This document shows positions 1 to 7,558 of a DNA stretch of 9,480 nucleotides, piece after piece. Location: IMG/VR virus record IMGVR_UViG_2671180778_000012, positions 1 to 9,480 of that record. One strand, 5' to 3'. Under the pieces are notes generated by a model, which saw only the letters and a list, made by a program, of their open reading frames with translations, had not been told where the DNA came from and did no database searches. A program made the position numbers and the translations under genes. The stretch is from a virus. Taxonomy: Duplodnaviria > Heunggongvirae > Uroviricota > Caudoviricetes. The first letter of the stretch is position 1. Each line of letters starts with the position of its first letter.

Positions 1-717
1 ATGGATGATAACAATATATCGGTCAAACAATATATTATTTATTCGGTTATGAATGATTTAATTACTGGTGGGCGAGAATCTTCAGTTTTAAACGTTCCTG
101 TATCTTTATCCCCGAAAAACTCCACCATAGAGGCTATAAAACGCTTGATTGATGATATAAGAGATTATTTTTATAAATCAAAATATCCAACAAGAGAATT
201 TCTTTTGTGTTATGGTTTAGAATCAAGTGAAATCGAGCAATATCCTATTGAATTAGCTGCAAAAATGGATTCATGTGGTTTTTTAATATTTGATAGTAAA
301 CTATCTTGTCAGGTTGTCGATACTTTAAATTCAGCAGTTGCATTGTACCATGTCGGAATGCGTAATCACGCAGACAAACTTACTAGAGTTGGTGTTGAGT
401 TATTGCTTAATGATTTTTTTGAAGAAATTATATCGAACCATGAAAAAGATAAAAAAATAAAGGATGCTTTATCCTTATCACAGAAAGAAAAAGCGCGCAA
501 ACCAAGAAATCATTATTACAATGAAGTTATGCACGTAATTAAACTAACATGGGAAAAGTACCCTAAAGCCAGTAAAACAGGTTTATTGAACGAGCTTTCT
601 GTTTACTACCATGGGAAAGTAAGTAAAAACACGCTAGATAGATGGATTAAAGAATCAGGGGCACAACCACCAAAGCCTGATAAATACTCTTCGTTTGAGC
701 TTGTTCACCCCCAATAG
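1..717 (+). CDS. Hypothetical AT-rich protein (238 aa) with C-terminal helix-turn-helix-like segment; possible accessory/regulatory cargo
   Basis: Complete ATG..TAG ORF. Strongly AT-rich (first 60 nt about 23% GC) against about 50% GC for the rest of the window. C-terminal segment GLLNELSVYYHGKVSKNTLDRWIK resembles an HTH. No family recognised by eye. Confidence 0.6.
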   Translation: MDDNNISVKQYIIYSVMNDLITGGRESSVLNVPVSLSPKNSTIEAIKRLIDDIRDYFYKSKYPTREFLLCYGLESSEIEQYPIELAAKMDSCGFLIFDSKLSCQVVDTLNSAVALYHVGMRNHADKLTRVGVELLLNDFFEEIISNHEKDKKIKDALSLSQKEKARKPRNHYYNEVMHVIKLTWEKYPKASKTGLLNELSVYYHGKVSKNTLDRWIKESGAQPPKPDKYSSFELVHPQ

Positions 718-798
718 CTGGCTACGGTATTTTAATAGCTGGCTATTGAGGCTAAATAACTGGTAACAGCCCCACAGCAACTGGCTATTGGGCTAAAA
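714..798. repeat. Direct repeat array: CTGGCTA core at 718, 739, 781; 18-bp repeat CTGGCTATTG(A)GGCTAAA(A) at 739-756 and 781-798
   Basis: Read directly. Core copies are offset by 21 and 42 bp, i.e. whole numbers of helical turns. Array lies between the ORF1 stop and the AlpA-like gene. Confidence 0.75.
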
Positions 799-822
799 AC
801 AAAATACTCATTGATTGATATT

Positions 823-856
823 TATCACCGTTGTTACTTAGACGTACACGGTGATA
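823..856. promoter_or_regulatory. Inverted repeat TATCACCG-N18-CGGTGATA overlapping the RBS/start region of the AlpA-like gene; candidate operator
   Basis: Arms at 823-830 and 849-856 are exact reverse complements. Possible -35 TTGATA at 815-820 just upstream. No convincing -10, so promoter assignment is tentative. Confidence 0.4.
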
Positions 857-859
857 GAT

Positions 860-1069
860 ATGAATTTAAAGAAATCTGATTTATCAACTGACCGCCTTAC
901 ACGTGCTGAAGCTGCTGCCTACCTTGGCGTTAACAATCAAACACTGGCGAACTGGGCGTGTACTGGCAAGGTAAAAATCCCTTTCCATAAACTTGGTCGC
1001 AAAGTGCTGTATATGCGCACTGATCTCGATGCTTATCTTGCATCCACTCGCAGAACGCAGACGGTGTAA
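860..1069 (+). CDS. Excisionase-family HTH DNA-binding protein (AlpA/Xis/Vis-like), 69 aa
   Basis: Sequence LTRAEAAAYLGVNNQTLANWACTGKVKIPFHKLGRKVLYMRTDLDAYL fits the excisionase-family (AlpA/Xis-type) DNA-binding domain pattern. ATG at 860 is preferred over the in-frame GTG at 851. GGTGA lies 5 nt upstream of the ATG. Confidence 0.75.
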   Translation: MNLKKSDLSTDRLTRAEAAAYLGVNNQTLANWACTGKVKIPFHKLGRKVLYMRTDLDAYLASTRRTQTV

Positions 1070-1182
1070 GGGGGAGTGATGGCACATAAAACAAAGGCGA
1101 CCGGGGGCGGTCGCCAATGGATACACACTAAACTTGAACGCATCACCAACAATGCCACATTTGCGGCTGGTGGGCAATGTGA

Positions 1183-1413: not shown

Positions 1414-1719
1414 TTACTCTGGTTCTTTGGTCTTGCGACGCTGGAGTTCTTCGCGTGCAACGGTGACAAGCTGCCCGATTTCTTCCGCTGCTTTGATGCC
1501 GATTTGTTCGACCTTAGCCAGGGCATCCAGTGACGACACAAGGGGATTTTCTCCGCTGCCTTCTGCTTGGCGGCGGGCTATTTCTCCGCGCATGGCGGTT
1601 ACGATAAATCCGGCATTGCTTTCGCCGTCCAGCTTAACGGATTCCATCCCTTGCATAACATCTAGTGGGACTCTGACAGTTGTCAGTTGTGATTTTGCGT
1701 TTTTGTTAGCCGTTGCCAT
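1414..1719 (-). CDS. Hypothetical 101-aa protein, possibly a ribbon-helix-helix-type DNA-binding regulator
   Basis: AGGAG Shine-Dalgarno 8 nt upstream of the ATG (plus-strand CTCCT at 1728-1732). About 40% of codons start with G, a strong coding signature. No Cys, E/A/K-rich. N-terminal SQLTTVRVPLDVMQGM resembles an RHH beta-strand plus helix; this fold assignment is inference. Confidence 0.65.
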   Translation of the reverse strand: MATANKNAKSQLTTVRVPLDVMQGMESVKLDGESNAGFIVTAMRGEIARRQAEGSGENPLVSSLDALAKVEQIGIKAAEEIGQLVTVAREELQRRKTKEPE

Positions 1720-2439: not shown

Positions 2440-2739
2440 ATGAGAACATATTTATCTGGCTTGACTGCCAGCGGTTATGCACACCCCCAAATTATCCCCG
2501 GCGCTATTTATCTGGATAAGAACGGTAACAGAGTAACGGTAAAAGAACTGATGTTTGACCGTGTGTATTTTATTCGTGATGGCTATTCATTTCATAGTTC
2601 GCTGAACGTGGAGATCTTTATTAGCAGATTCAGGCGGGAAATCCCGCTTTCCAGAAAAAACCATGTGTCACGTGTGAATGTGGATAAAAAACTACAGGAA
2701 CTGAAAAACATGATTGCCGCGTGGAGAGAGCAGAAATGA
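2440..2739 (+). CDS. Hypothetical protein (99 aa)
   Basis: ATG at 2440 with GGGGA 9 nt upstream. Stop TGA overlaps the primase ATG (ATGA at 2736-2739), suggesting translational coupling. Confidence 0.5.
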   Translation: MRTYLSGLTASGYAHPQIIPGAIYLDKNGNRVTVKELMFDRVYFIRDGYSFHSSLNVEIFISRFRREIPLSRKNHVSRVNVDKKLQELKNMIAAWREQK

Positions 2740-4553
2740 AAAAAGCGCCAAATTTAAAACACCAGCCGCGTGACAAAATGACGGAAGTCATCATTTTTGC
2801 GGGTAGTGATGCGTGGGCACATGCGAAGCAGTGGCAGGAACAGGACGGGCGACTGGCTGGCGATAACGTGCCACCTGTCTGGCTTGGAGAGCAACAACTT
2901 GCCGAACTGGACAACCTGCAAATCGTACCGGACGGACGCTATCGCGTGCGTCTCTATCAGGCGGGGTTATTGCGTCCGGGGCTTGTTAATACCATCGGGC
3001 AGAAACTGGCAGTGGCAGGTGTCAGGGATGCTGATTATTACCCTGAAGGAATGCACAGCCAGAAACGGGAGAACTGGCGCGAATATCTGGAACGTGAACG
3101 GGCAGAGCAGGCGGAAAAGAAAAAGGTAGTTGAACTGCCTGTAAAGAAAAAAGAGCGGGTAAAAGACGATAACGCGTCATCACTGGCGCTTAACCAGATG
3201 GGAGCAAGTCAACGCGGCGAAGTTCTCCTGGCACATTATGGCGGTGAACTGGCGATTCATGCTGACTCTGACACTGTTCACCATTACAACGGCGTTGTAT
3301 GGGAGCCAGTACAGGATAAAGAATTACAGCGAGCTATGGCACAGATTTTCATTGATGCGGAGATCAGCTATTCGCAGAACGCCATTAAATCGGCGGTCGA
3401 TACCATGAAGTTAAGTTTGCCTGTAATGGGGAATACAGCCCGTAACCTGATTGGATTCAGTAACGGGGTATTTGATACCAGAACAGGTAATTTTCGGGAG
3501 CATAACAAAAACGACTGGTTGTTAATTGCCAGTGAATTACCTTTCAGCCCACCAGCAGAGGGGGAAACGCTGGCAACACATGCGCCGAATTTCTGGAAGT
3601 GGTTACGCCGTTCGGTGGCTGAGAATGACCGCAAGGCGGATCGCGTACTGGCTGCATTATTCATGGTGCTGGCGAACCGGTACGACTGGCAGTTATTCAT
3701 TGAGGTAACAGGTCCAGGGGGAAGTGGTAAAAGCGTGATGGCGGAGATTTGCACCATGCTGGCGGGTAAGGCCAACACAGTATCGGCAAGCATGAAGGCG
3801 CTGGAAGATGCAAGGGAACGCGCGTTAGTGGTTGGCTTTTCGCTGATTATCATGCCGGATATGACCCGCTACGCTGGTGATGGGGCAGGGATTAAGGCTA
3901 TTACAGGCGGTGACAAGGTGGCAATTGACCCGAAACACAAAGCCCCCTACTCAACGCGTATTCCGGCAGTAGTGCTGGCGGTTAACAATAACGCCATGTC
4001 ATTCAGTGACCGCAGCGGGGGGATCTCACGTCGTCGGGTGATATTCAATTTTTCGGAAGTTGTACCGGAGAACGAACGTGATCCAATGCTGGCGGAAAAA
4101 ATAGAAGGTGAGCTGGCGGTAGTGATTCGCCATCTGCTTACACGGTTTGCTGACCAGGACGAAGCCAGACGCCTGTTATATGAGCAGCAGAAATCTGAAG
4201 AAGCACTGGCGATAAAGCGAGAGGGGGATTCGCTGGTGGACTTCTGCGGCTATCTCATGGCGTCGGTAATGTGTGATGGCCTGTTAGTGGGTAATGCTGA
4301 AATTGTGCCATTCAGCCCACGCAGGTATCTCTATCATGCCTATCTGGCTTATATGAGGGCACATGGGTTTGGTAAACCTGTAACACTGACGCGCTTCGGT
4401 AAAGATATGCCGGGGGCAATGGCGGAATATGGCAGGGAGTATATGAAACGGAAAACGAAGCACGGTTTGCGTTCAAACGTGACACTGACGGAGGAATCAG
4501 AAGACTGGATGCCATCATGTGTATCGGTCACTAATGACGATAGCAAAAATTAA
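2736..4553 (+). CDS. P4 alpha-type phage/plasmid primase-helicase (D5_N / primase C-terminal region plus SF3 P-loop NTPase)
   Basis: Walker A GPGGSGKS. Motifs NGVFDTRTG and RRRVIFNFSE are typical of the P4-family primase C-terminal / D5 helicase region. ATG at 2736 preferred over GTG at 2721 (GGAGAGAG 5 nt upstream). The N-terminal ~250 aa carry no motif I recognise. Confidence 0.85.
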   Translation: MKKAPNLKHQPRDKMTEVIIFAGSDAWAHAKQWQEQDGRLAGDNVPPVWLGEQQLAELDNLQIVPDGRYRVRLYQAGLLRPGLVNTIGQKLAVAGVRDADYYPEGMHSQKRENWREYLERERAEQAEKKKVVELPVKKKERVKDDNASSLALNQMGASQRGEVLLAHYGGELAIHADSDTVHHYNGVVWEPVQDKELQRAMAQIFIDAEISYSQNAIKSAVDTMKLSLPVMGNTARNLIGFSNGVFDTRTGNFREHNKNDWLLIASELPFSPPAEGETLATHAPNFWKWLRRSVAENDRKADRVLAALFMVLANRYDWQLFIEVTGPGGSGKSVMAEICTMLAGKANTVSASMKALEDARERALVVGFSLIIMPDMTRYAGDGAGIKAITGGDKVAIDPKHKAPYSTRIPAVVLAVNNNAMSFSDRSGGISRRRVIFNFSEVVPENERDPMLAEKIEGELAVVIRHLLTRFADQDEARRLLYEQQKSEEALAIKREGDSLVDFCGYLMASVMCDGLLVGNAEIVPFSPRRYLYHAYLAYMRAHGFGKPVTLTRFGKDMPGAMAEYGREYMKRKTKHGLRSNVTLTEESEDWMPSCVSVTNDDSKN

Positions 4554-4566
4554 ACTTATGGAATAA

Positions 4567-4795
4567 CTGTTCACCACTGTTCACCCTGTCATAAATATCT
4601 TTTATATCAGTATATTATAGGGTGAACAGTTATTTATGAACTGTTCACCAAACTATTCACTGTTCACCTTTTTGATTGTTTATTGAGCTTCAAGGGTGAA
4701 CAGTGGTGAACAGTTGGTGAATAGTTTTTGTGAAACTGTTCACCCCTTAACATTATGAATTAAAAGAGAAAATATCAAAAGGTGAACAGGTGAAG
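4567..4795. repeat. Iteron array, putative replication origin: 9-bp CTGTTCACC / GGTGAACAG in 9 perfect and 2 degenerate copies, flanking AT-rich segments
   Basis: Forward copies at 4567, 4577, 4641, 4660, 4736; reverse copies at 4621, 4695, 4705, 4781; degenerate copies at 4652 and 4716. Tandem pairs are 10 bp apart. AT-rich 4591-4620 is flanked by inverted copies. Array begins 14 bp after the primase stop. Confidence 0.65.
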
Positions 4796-4925
4796 GGTTA
4801 AAACGCAAAAATTTTAATTTACTGCTGTGAGATAAAGCCTATGACAGCGAAGCACACCAAAACAACAGGCGGGGAATGATGATCCGTACGGGGATAACAT
4901 ACCGTTTTAAGCAACGAGTAACAGA

Positions 4926-4948
4926 AGCCGGAGCAATCCGGCTTTTTT
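4926..4948 (+). terminator. Intrinsic terminator-like hairpin AGCCGGA-GCAA-TCCGGCT followed by a T run
   Basis: 7-bp perfect stem, GNRA-type GCAA loop, T run to 4948. Confidence 0.55.
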
Positions 4949-4950
4949 AT

Positions 4951-5022
4951 GGGTCCTCCCGGTGTAGTGACCTGCCACGGGGCGGGAACGGCGCGGAAAA
5001 AGGCTGGTTTTTGCATTTTCAT
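4951..5022 (+). repeat. Conserved 72-bp non-coding element, copy A (second copy at 7487-7558)
   Basis: Hand alignment to 7487-7558 gives 66 of 72 identical positions. Both copies start 2 nt after a terminator T run. Confidence 0.8.
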
Positions 5023-5209
5023 GGCGGCGGCAGCATGTGTGATAATTTATTGATAATTAAAAGTTATTTCTGTTTTCACCTGTACAATATTTTTTTCTCC
5101 CTGTCATTAGACCAGTTTGCAATTAATTGAAATATATAAATAAATCTGTTTTTCACCTGCCAGGTGGAGTTGCCTGTGTCAAAACGTGTTCAGATGGCGG
5201 GATATTTAT

Positions 5210-5232
5210 GCCGGATTTTCTCCGGCTTTTTT
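5210..5232 (+). terminator. Intrinsic terminator-like hairpin GCCGGA-TTTTC-TCCGGC followed by T6
   Basis: 6-bp stem and T6 read directly. Stem sequence matches the core of the 4926 hairpin. Confidence 0.5.
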
Positions 5233-5334
5233 GTGTCTGAATCTCATTAATCTGTTTTTATGATAGAAATATGTTTATCTACCACTTTTATCGATCAATA
5301 ATGTGCGCAGTTTAGTCAGTAAGAGGAAGTTACT

Positions 5335-7461: not shown

Positions 7462-7484
7462 GGCGGCGATAGCCGCCTTTTTTT
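7462..7484 (+). terminator. Intrinsic terminator GGCGGC-GATA-GCCGCC followed by T7, 8 nt after the capsid stop
   Basis: Perfect 6-bp GC stem, 4-nt loop, seven T. Confidence 0.7.
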
Positions 7485-7486
7485 AC

Positions 7487-7558
7487 GGGTCCTCCCGGTG
7501 GGGTGGTCTGCCACGGGGCGGGAGCGGCGCGGAAAAAGGCTAGTTTTTGCATTTTCAT
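7487..7558 (+). repeat. Conserved 72-bp non-coding element, copy B
   Basis: 66 of 72 identity with 4951-5022. Lies 154 bp upstream of the Nu1-like gene. Confidence 0.8.

What the first reader, a model, noticed from the sequence alone, without database searches (positions are those of the whole stretch)
1..717. Compositionally foreign AT-rich gene just upstream of the AlpA-like gene
GC content drops to roughly 25-35% across this single ORF while the rest of the element is about 50%, which points to separate acquisition. The slot next to the excision/activation gene is where satellites often carry variable accessory cargo such as anti-phage or host-interaction genes. The protein has a C-terminal HTH-like segment but an unrecognised ~180-aa N-terminal domain.
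Basis: partly seen in the sequence, partly recalled or inferred. Interest (0 to 1): 0.55.

Follow-up and report, generated by a model that had tools for sequence, protein, structure and literature searches.

The report
Integrase-linked regulator gene of a phage satellite
The AT-rich gene is not random foreign cargo: it belongs to an uncharacterised protein family that always sits between the integrase and the AlpA master activator of one lineage of enterobacterial phage satellites, and it most likely controls the alpA switch by binding a matching array of DNA sites just downstream.

Summary
ORF 1-717 (238 aa) has 33.1% GC (GC3 25.5%) against 47.7% for the rest of the window. Its C-terminus is a predicted winged-helix/HTH domain. 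Its N-terminal ~165 aa match no known family or fold.

The "foreign accessory cargo" reading is not supported. A homologue lies downstream of a ~475-aa integrase and upstream of alpA in every related island examined. These come from E. coli, Salmonella, Klebsiella, Yersinia and Serratia. All 15 homologues measured have the same low GC (30-38%).

In E. coli the integrase is at least 95% identical in 85 genomes. The gene, however, occurs as at least four alleles only 20-33% identical. The break points are sharp, as in a phage immunity cassette.

Three or four 12-bp palindromes start on the stop codon and repeat every 21 bp towards alpA. Their sequence changes with the gene's C-terminal domain, not with AlpA or the integrase arm-binding domain.

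Best model: an allele-specific DNA-binding regulator of alpA, probably a brake, with a swappable N-terminal sensor domain. This rests on computation only. I rate it a new variant of a known kind, of moderate interest.

The parts
1..717 (+). Gene 'X': 238-aa protein of an uncharacterised family. In near-identical E. coli islands its ATG overlaps the stop codon of the upstream integrase by 8 nt; the integrase lies just outside the window.
   Evidence: ORF. int/X overlap in L001. Family. Synteny. GC 33.1%.
1..480 (+). N-terminal all-helical domain (aa 1-~160). It is hypervariable between alleles (14-29% identity between types) and swaps independently of the C-terminal domain. It contains one conserved motif, aa 109-127 (LNSA..L...G..N.A..L), and ends in a 46-residue helix (aa 121-166). 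Proposed sensor/oligomerisation domain (inferred).
   Evidence: Alignments. Identity matrices. Recombination break at about nt 481-486: (H24). AF2. No fold match.
481..717 (+). C-terminal conserved domain (aa ~161-238): a basic arm (KASKPRN), a three-helix winged-helix/HTH-like bundle, and a conserved tail (PPKPDKYSSFELVHPQ). Predicted DNA-binding domain.
714..788 (.). Array of four 12-bp sites at exact 21-nt spacing: 714-725 ATAGCTGGCTAC, 735-746 ATAGCTGGCTAT, 756-767 ATAACTGGTAAC and 777-788 GCAACTGGCTAT. The first two fit a palindrome of two 5-bp half-sites around a CA/TG centre, with at most one mismatch; the last two are more degenerate. The first site contains the X stop codon. Proposed operators of X.
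   Evidence: The two well-matched sites occur nowhere else in the window or in the 25-kb locus L001. Site type follows the X C-terminal type in 10 of 10 loci of types A and B, with no cross matches.
813..866 (+). Inverted repeat or RNA hairpin (cores TATCACCG 822-829 and CGGTGATA 849-856). Its 3' arm holds the alpA Shine-Dalgarno sequence (GGTGAT) and the ATG at 860. It may hide the alpA ribosome site on transcripts that read through from int-X (inferred).
   Evidence: MFE -22.6 kcal/mol, z -6.4, 0 of 200 shuffles as stable. Consensus fold in 10 diverse loci: 10 pairs, 5 with compensatory changes.
860..1069 (+). alpA-like gene (HTH_17). AlpA is the master activator/excisionase-type regulator of Gram-negative PICIs and is the presumed target of the switch.
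   Evidence: Pfam HTH_17 E 1.4e-11. PHROG excisionase/regulator families. Role of AlpA: PMC6092414 and PMC11773190.

Best explanation
Gene X encodes a sequence-specific DNA-binding regulator. It is a fixed part of the int-X-alpA 'integration/switch' module in one lineage of enterobacterial PICI-type phage satellites.

Its start codon overlaps or abuts the end of the integrase gene (shown). From this I infer that it is made together with the integrase in the quiescent island.

Its C-terminal winged-helix/HTH domain, probably as a dimer, binds three or four palindromic sites. These begin on its own stop codon and repeat every two helical turns towards alpA (inferred from co-variation).

I judge it most likely a brake on the self-activating alpA switch. 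It could block read-through from int-X and/or the upstream region of the alpA promoter. The hypervariable, independently swappable N-terminal domain would be the part that senses a helper-phage signal or sets allele specificity. The alleles would then behave like immunity or induction-specificity groups.

The low GC is a standing trait of the whole family and of its cassette. It is not a mark of recent foreign origin.
For: 1. Fixed synteny. Integrase (473-481 aa), X and alpA lie in this order in 27 of 28 loci with upstream sequence. These come from E. coli, Salmonella, Klebsiella, Yersinia, Serratia and metagenomes. The replication modules downstream (D5 primase, DUF927, AAA_25) and the capsid modules differ.

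3. Phased palindromes directly after the stop codon. The two well-matched sites are unique to that spot.

4. Natural swaps.
- L001 vs L004: integrase arm domain 100% identical, integrase core 95%, AlpA DNA-binding part identical. The X C-domain is only 33% identical, and the sites change from ATAGC-TG-GCTAT to AAATC-CA-GATTT.
- L023 and L024 share their AlpA type with L008 and L010, but carry a type-A X domain and type-A sites.
- L006 vs L013: integrase 94% identical, with different X C-domains and different sites.

5. Immunity-cassette-like mosaicism. In E. coli the integrase is at least 95% identical in 85 genomes. X alleles (22+1, 54-58, 1, and at least 1 genomes) are 20-33% identical. Break points fall at int nt ~1320, at the X domain boundary, or ~70-100 nt inside alpA.

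6. Literature. [quoted passage not shown]

7. The family is absent from 50,697 phage genomes.
Against: - No experiment exists, and DNA binding is not shown.
- The sites lie directly next to the X 3' end, so co-variation could be plain linkage within one recombination block. In the L001/L004 comparison that block also includes the first ~25 codons of alpA.
- The array lies about 70-145 nt upstream of the alpA ATG. This fits an activator or anti-activator as well as a repressor. No convincing sigma-70 promoter was found there.
- X is co-oriented with alpA, not divergent as classical satellite repressors are.
- Model Gram-negative PICIs such as EcCICFT073 are induced without any such gene, so it is not needed in general.
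- A second regulator candidate exists: a divergent YlcI/YnfO-type gene at 1414-1719.
- In type C and D loci the sites are less clear.
Confidence: 0.5

Rival explanations
1. X is a helper-sensing activator or co-activator of alpA, not a brake. It is made constitutively with the integrase and sits on an upstream activating array. It turns alpA on only when its N-terminal domain meets a helper-phage signal.
For: The array lies upstream of, not over, the likely core promoter. The last site is centred ~78 nt before the alpA ATG. Phased sites on one face of the helix are typical of upstream activators. Helper phages induce alpA transcription by an unknown route (PMC6092414).
Against: AlpA already activates its own promoter, and X-less PICIs are inducible. 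An added activator is therefore less economical than an added brake. The first site overlaps the X stop codon, and the RBS-hiding hairpin suggests insulation against read-through, which fits a negative role better.
Confidence: 0.17
2. X is an accessory factor of the integrase, for example an architectural, directionality or target-choice protein. The link to alpA is only positional.
For: Its start codon overlaps the integrase stop by 4-19 nt in most loci. It is found only with this long integrase lineage (473-481 aa), which has a ~65-aa extension after the catalytic Tyr. The last ~100 nt of int always swap together with the X N-domain.
Against: The repeats lie ~2.2 kb from the attL end next to int, so they are not part of the attachment site. 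At least four X alleles only 20-33% identical serve an integrase at least 95% identical at the same tRNA site. That is hard to reconcile with a co-adapted partner. The integrase tail stays conserved at protein level across alleles. AlpA already fills the excisionase-type role.
Confidence: 0.1
3. One reading: X is horizontally acquired accessory cargo, for example an anti-phage or host-interaction gene in a variable slot. The HTH serves only its own regulation.
For: Low GC. Extreme allelic diversity of the N-domain. The N-terminal fold is unknown. Other AT-rich cargo-like genes, such as a HEPN gene, exist elsewhere in sister islands.
Against: The slot always holds a homologue, never an unrelated gene or nothing. 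Low GC is shared by all 15 family members measured, in hosts of differing GC. There is no PADLOC hit and no catalytic or membrane features. The conserved part is the DNA-binding domain together with matching sites that lead to alpA.
Confidence: 0.08
4. The phased palindromes are bound by another factor, such as a helper-phage or host protein or AlpA. X has an unrelated function, for example acting on the helper phage's own repressor or DNA.
For: Co-variation can arise from linkage alone, because the sites and the X C-domain are contiguous. In types C and D the sites are poorly defined.
Against: The sites do not follow AlpA type or the integrase arm-domain type in several natural recombinants. 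Type A and type B sites keep the same layout of two 5-bp half-sites around a CA/TG centre while the half-site sequence changes. That is expected for homologous binding domains with altered specificity.
Confidence: 0.1

Closest known systems
Stl/Rpr master repressors of SaPIs and other Gram-positive PICIs
   Same: A satellite-encoded HTH protein with a conserved DNA-binding part and a highly variable second domain. Its gene is co-oriented with int. It stands next to the gene set that starts the satellite cycle. Allelic diversity is expected to match different helper-phage inducers (PMC6092414).
   Different: There is no sequence or family relation: no XRE/HTH_3 hit. The domain order is reversed, with the HTH at the C-terminus. 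X lies downstream of int and is co-oriented with its presumed target, not divergent from it. Its presumed target is the activator gene alpA, not a xis-rep operon. Repression and derepression by a phage protein are untested.
Immunity regions of lambdoid phages (cI/cro with their operators)
   Same: A short AT-rich cassette holding a regulator plus its own operators. It occurs as very divergent alleles between conserved flanks, with sharp recombination break points. This comparison rests on general knowledge of lambdoid phages.
   Different: There is one regulator gene, not a divergent pair. The operators are 12-bp sites in a 21-bp phased array downstream of the gene. There is no peptidase (SOS-cleavable) domain. 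It belongs to a satellite and has no homologue in 50,697 phage genomes.
AlpA / P4 Vis (HTH_17) regulators of Gram-negative PICIs and P4
   Same: Small DNA-binding regulators in the integration zone next to int that control the switch to the active cycle (PMC10111431; PMC6092414).
   Different: X is a different family: it has no HTH_17 match, is three times larger and has two domains. It is present in addition to AlpA. The published 'integration zone' holds only int and alpA.
Defence/cargo hotspots of phage satellites (P4 psu-int hotspot; PICI-encoded immune systems)
   Same: AT-rich, highly diverse genes beside the integrase of a satellite.
   Different: Hotspots hold unrelated genes in different elements. 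Here every element holds a homologue with a conserved DNA-binding domain, and no defence model matches.

Membership tests
Gram-negative PICI-type phage satellite (the element as a whole) | Co-oriented int, alpA and primase/replicase genes in that order | tested here: met
   alpA lies at 860-1069 and the D5-type primase at 2721-4553. int lies immediately upstream in near-identical E. coli islands.
Gram-negative PICI-type phage satellite (the element as a whole) | Small size (about 10-20 kb), integrated at a specific site, with few or no tail or lysis genes | tested here: met
   Only a ClpP-capsid fusion and a DUF1441 (terS-like) late gene are present. The island lies between a tRNA 3' fragment and tRNA-Ile in L001.
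Gram-negative PICI-type phage satellite (the element as a whole) | Induction, packaging and transfer by a helper phage | not testable with these tools
   This needs experiments. The only hint is that related loci occur in IMG/VR viral contigs.
Stl/Rpr-type satellite master repressor | Sequence-specific DNA-binding (HTH) domain | tested here: inconclusive
Stl/Rpr-type satellite master repressor | Homology to known Stl/Rpr/CI-like (XRE) repressors | tested here: not met
   No Pfam, PHROG or NCBIfam hit for X or for 75 family members. No PDB sequence hit.
Stl/Rpr-type satellite master repressor | Gene divergently transcribed from the operon it represses | tested here: not met
   X is co-oriented with alpA and lies upstream of it.
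Stl/Rpr-type satellite master repressor | Own operators between the repressor gene and its target | tested here: inconclusive
   The phased palindromes at 714-788 co-vary with the X C-domain. Binding is not shown, and linkage is an alternative explanation.
Stl/Rpr-type satellite master repressor | Repression lifted when a helper-phage protein binds the repressor | not testable with these tools
   The only indirect pointer is the hypervariable, swappable N-domain.
Known anti-phage defence systems (PADLOC models) | Match to a defence-system protein model | tested here: not met
   No PADLOC hit at E <= 1 for X or for the L002 allele.
Variable accessory-cargo slot | Unrelated genes, or no gene, occupy the slot in sister elements | tested here: not met
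   A family member occupies the slot in every locus examined. In E. coli, three alleles account for about 78-82 of the 85 genomes carrying the integrase, and one of the remaining genomes, when sampled, held a fourth allele.
HTH_17 excisionase/AlpA family | Match to PF12728 | tested here: not met
   X has no HTH_17 hit. The neighbouring gene at 860-1069 has one.

The most novel reading that the evidence does not exclude
X is the missing helper-sensing master regulator of a Gram-negative PICI lineage, a functional analogue of Stl built from an unrelated fold. Its C-terminal domain would hold alpA off through the phased operator array. Its interchangeable N-terminal domains would each recognise a different helper-phage protein. 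The alleles would then decide which phage can induce the island, and sister islands sharing one integrase and one attachment site would be 'heteroimmune'.
Probability: 0.25. Interest if true: 0.75.

Novelty: new variant of a known kind. Interest (0 to 1): 0.5.

Why it matters
How Gram-negative PICIs stay silent, and how a helper phage switches on alpA, is an open question. The founding paper states that a global repressor is unclear and the inducer unknown (PMC6092414).

This lineage offers a concrete candidate that can be tested:
- a protein family with no annotation;
- a defined operator array;
- natural allele swaps of both the binding domain and the putative sensor domain, all beside a nearly identical integrase.

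If the model holds, it would give a direct handle on satellite induction specificity. It would also add a new DNA-binding regulator family with a new N-terminal fold.

If it fails, there is still a practical lesson. Low GC beside a satellite integrase is not by itself evidence for cargo.

Tried and rejected
- Family libraries gave nothing for X: Pfam, PHROGs, NCBIfam and PADLOC. The only hit was a weak ISNCY transposase HTH (E 0.027). Scanning 75 family members against Pfam gave only scattered sub-threshold HTH hits.
- A profile search against PDB sequences gave one spurious hit (E 1.5).
- The GTDB species-representative genome scan found no relative. Two alignments were too diverse for that tool.
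- Phage genomes gave no tblastn match. Plasmids gave one weak match, in a 728-kb record.
- Rfam found no family in the window, including the P4-type C4/isrK immunity RNAs reported in some PICIs. No tRNA lies in the window.
- Literature. No paper cites the RefSeq accessions. The gene between int and alpA in EcCIMP1 is a small ORF (about 10% the size of UvrB by the authors' description), judged unrelated on size alone and not compared by sequence. I found no published description of this family.
- Rejected: that the integrase C-terminal tail is hypervariable and co-adapted to X. It swaps at the DNA level but stays conserved at the protein level.
- Rejected: that X alleles track the capsid module. 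Allele B occurs with both a separately annotated major capsid protein gene and the ClpP-capsid fusion.
- The sigma-70 scan found no promoter in 700-860, and the overall hit count was not above chance.

Full report
**Observation**

The window opens on an ATG ORF, 1-717, of 238 aa. Its GC is 33.1% (GC3 25.5%) against 47.7% for the rest of the window. It is the lowest of all 717-nt windows, with z = -4.7. An HTH_17 (AlpA-type) gene follows at 860-1069.

The rest of the window is a PICI-type phage satellite. It holds:
- a YlcI/YnfO-like gene on the minus strand;
- an Icd-like gene;
- a DUF4222 gene;
- a D5-type primase;
- a ClpP-capsid fusion;
- a DUF1441/terS-like gene.

The composition claim is therefore correct.

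**Where the window comes from**

Bases 1-1100 are 99.8% identical to E. coli chromosomes. In strain MS1679 a 473-aa tyrosine integrase ends 8 nt inside the ORF (int 10587-12008, ORF 12001-12717 of L001). The island lies between a tRNA 3' fragment next to int and a complete tRNA-Ile. I call the ORF X.

**X is a family, not an orphan**

A word-indexed search found only 11 clusters. A profile search of 1.84 billion representatives found about 130 proteins of 190-280 aa, 80 of them at E <= 1e-10.

All share a C-terminal ~80 aa. The motif is ASKPRN..Y.E...I..TW.KYP.ASK......L..H....VS..TL..WIK...L.PP.P.KY..F.LV.P, and T183, W184, P188 and L234 are invariant. The N-terminal 100-160 aa are barely alignable.

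No Pfam, PHROG, NCBIfam or PADLOC model matches, and no PDB sequence does.

The DNA-binding fold is a prediction of modest strength.

**Is the slot variable cargo?**

No. I looked up the genomic places of diverse family members. I checked whether an integrase ORF ends at the start of X and whether alpA follows.

- Sources: E. coli, Salmonella, Klebsiella michiganensis, Yersinia enterocolitica, Serratia oryzae, several metagenome assemblies and IMG/VR contigs.
- In 27 of 28 loci with enough upstream DNA, a 473-481-aa integrase (Arm-DNA-bind_3 plus Phage_integrase) ends at or overlaps the X start.
- alpA follows within 110-175 nt. The exceptions are one locus cut by IS1 and one, L024, where the alpA reading frame is disrupted.
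- Downstream modules differ: D5 primase, DUF927 or AAA_25 for replication, and an E-like capsid or a ClpP-capsid fusion for packaging.
- In all 15 loci measured, X has 30-38% GC beside an integrase of 47-51%.

**Allelic structure**

In 5426 complete E. coli genomes the integrase (at least 95% identical) occurs in 85.

| X allele | Genomes |
|---|---|
| Window allele | 22, plus 1 cut by IS1 |
| Allele B (L004 type) | 54-58 |
| L002 allele | 1 |
| Fourth allele (L031) | at least 1 |

Between alleles the N-domain is 14-29% identical and the C-domain 26-33% identical across types, while the integrase stays at 92-100%.

Sliding identity shows sharp break points:
- L001 vs L004 collapses at int nt ~1320 and recovers ~70-100 nt inside alpA.
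- L001 vs L002 and L004 vs L031 collapse at the same int position but recover at the X domain boundary (window ~481-486).

So the N-domain swaps on its own. The C-domain swaps together with the intergenic region. This resembles an immunity cassette between conserved flanks.

**The sites**

From the stop codon onward there are four 12-bp sites at exactly 21-nt spacing, at 714, 735, 756 and 777. The first two fit the palindrome ATAGC-TG-GCTAT with at most one mismatch; the last two are more degenerate. Those two well-matched copies occur nowhere else in the window or in 25 kb of L001.

Loci with a type-B C-domain carry AAATC-CA-GATTT-like sites in the same layout. Type C loci carry TTAAC-CA-GTTAA-like sites. 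In a blind count, A-sites occur in 6 of 6 type-A loci and in no others. B-sites occur in 4 of 4 type-B loci and in no others. The first site always overlaps the stop codon.

The site type does not follow the other two candidate binders:
- L001 and L004 have identical integrase arm domains and identical AlpA recognition regions, yet different sites.
- L023 and L024 share their AlpA type with L008 and L010, but have type-A X domains and type-A sites.
- L006 and L013 have integrases 94% identical, yet different X C-domains and different sites.

The caveat is linkage. The sites abut the X 3' end and may simply travel with it.

**Context that bears on mechanism**

A strong inverted repeat (813-866; MFE -22.6 kcal/mol, z -6.4) pairs an upstream TATCACCG with the alpA Shine-Dalgarno sequence and ATG. 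It is kept in ten diverse loci, with compensatory changes in five of ten pairs. On transcripts reading through from int-X it would hide the alpA ribosome site. A transcript starting inside the loop would escape it. This is inference.

The literature says that AlpA is a self-activating master activator whose transcription is switched on by the helper phage through an unknown inducer. It also says that a global repressor in Gram-negative PICIs is unclear (PMC6092414; PMC11773190). The published integration zone contains only int and alpA (PMC10111431).

X has no homologue in 50,697 phage genomes.

**Model and rivals**

I conclude that X is a DNA-binding regulator of the int-alpA switch (about 0.5). 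A brake on alpA is somewhat more likely than an activator, and the N-domain would be a sensor or specificity module.

The rivals are:
- an activator or co-activator;
- an integrase accessory factor, disfavoured because very different alleles serve the same integrase and attachment site;
- true cargo or defence, disfavoured by fixed synteny, the family-wide composition and the absence of any defence-model match;
- binding of the array by another factor.

A second possible repressor is the divergent YlcI/YnfO-type gene at 1414-1719, with an inverted repeat and a promoter-like site at 1772-1832. It could be the island's main repressor instead. That would limit the role of X.

**Unexplained**

Why does the cassette stay AT-rich in hosts whose chromosomal flanks at these loci range from about 39% to 57% GC? 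Possibilities are silencing by H-NS, or exchange within a low-GC allele pool. Neither was tested.

**Verdict**

The feature is a new variant of a known kind: a satellite regulatory or immunity-type cassette built on an undescribed protein family. Interest is moderate (0.5). It is restricted to a narrow lineage and unproven, but it makes an open question about Gram-negative satellite induction directly testable.

Noticed in passing
window 813-866: A strong inverted repeat or RNA hairpin. Its 3' arm is the alpA Shine-Dalgarno sequence plus the ATG (TATCACCG ... CGGTGATA). MFE is -22.6 kcal/mol and z is -6.4. It is conserved in 10 diverse loci with compensatory changes. It may insulate alpA against read-through, or it may be a protein-binding site. 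The half-sites also resemble lambda operator half-sites, which may be coincidence.
   Followed up: partly
window 4552-4767: An AT-rich region just downstream of the primase gene, packed with direct and inverted copies of GGTGAACAGT. It looks like the island's replication origin with iterons.
   Followed up: no
window 4943-5022 and 7479-7558: An 80-nt GC-rich direct repeat, 91% identical between copies. Each copy lies just upstream of a late-type gene block: the first before orf69 and the ClpP-capsid fusion, the second before the DUF1441/terS-like gene. It may be a shared regulatory element, such as a helper-responsive promoter, a terminator or a small RNA. No Rfam match.
   Followed up: no
window 1414-1719 (- strand) and 1772-1832: A 101-aa YlcI/YnfO-family protein (NCBIfam E 1.6e-17) is transcribed divergently from the Icd-like/DUF4222/primase genes. 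Between them lie a 26-nt-arm inverted repeat and a promoter-like TTGACG-17-TAACAT. This layout is closer to the classical divergent satellite repressor arrangement, and the gene is a competing candidate for the island's repressor.
   Followed up: partly
window 1096-1115 (- strand): A perfect GC-rich hairpin followed by a T-run on the minus strand, directly after the alpA stop. It is probably the terminator of the minus-strand genes, preventing convergent transcription into alpA.
   Followed up: no
L001 16547-17260 and 20279-21067 (E. coli MS1679 island): Sister islands carry other AT-rich (about 30-35% GC) minus-strand genes after the primase and after the terS-like gene: a HEPN-domain protein and a 262-aa hypothetical protein. 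These behave like true variable cargo. The window lacks them and has a 780-nt non-coding AT-rich stretch (4554-5334) in the place where L001 carries the HEPN gene.
   Followed up: partly
L001 10587-12008 (integrase upstream of the window): The integrase lineage is unusually long (473-481 aa). It has a conserved ~65-aa extension after the catalytic Tyr (…IDAQLL..L..MSDEEKR.LLFSL…), and the last codons of the gene overlap X. The role of the extension is unknown.
   Followed up: partly
L001 10520-10580: Upstream of int there are direct and inverted copies of GGTATCC(T/A)GG. They may be arm-type or regulatory sites at the int promoter, and they differ from the X-linked palindromes.
   Followed up: no
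L003 6001-7100 (E. coli PEC41); L014 3588-5909: Damaged versions. In PEC41 an IS1 cuts X at about codon 209 and alpA is gone. In L014 the integrase is split and X has lost its stop codon and reads into alpA. It may be worth checking whether loss of X goes together with loss of alpA or int, as expected if X restrains a harmful switch.
   Followed up: no
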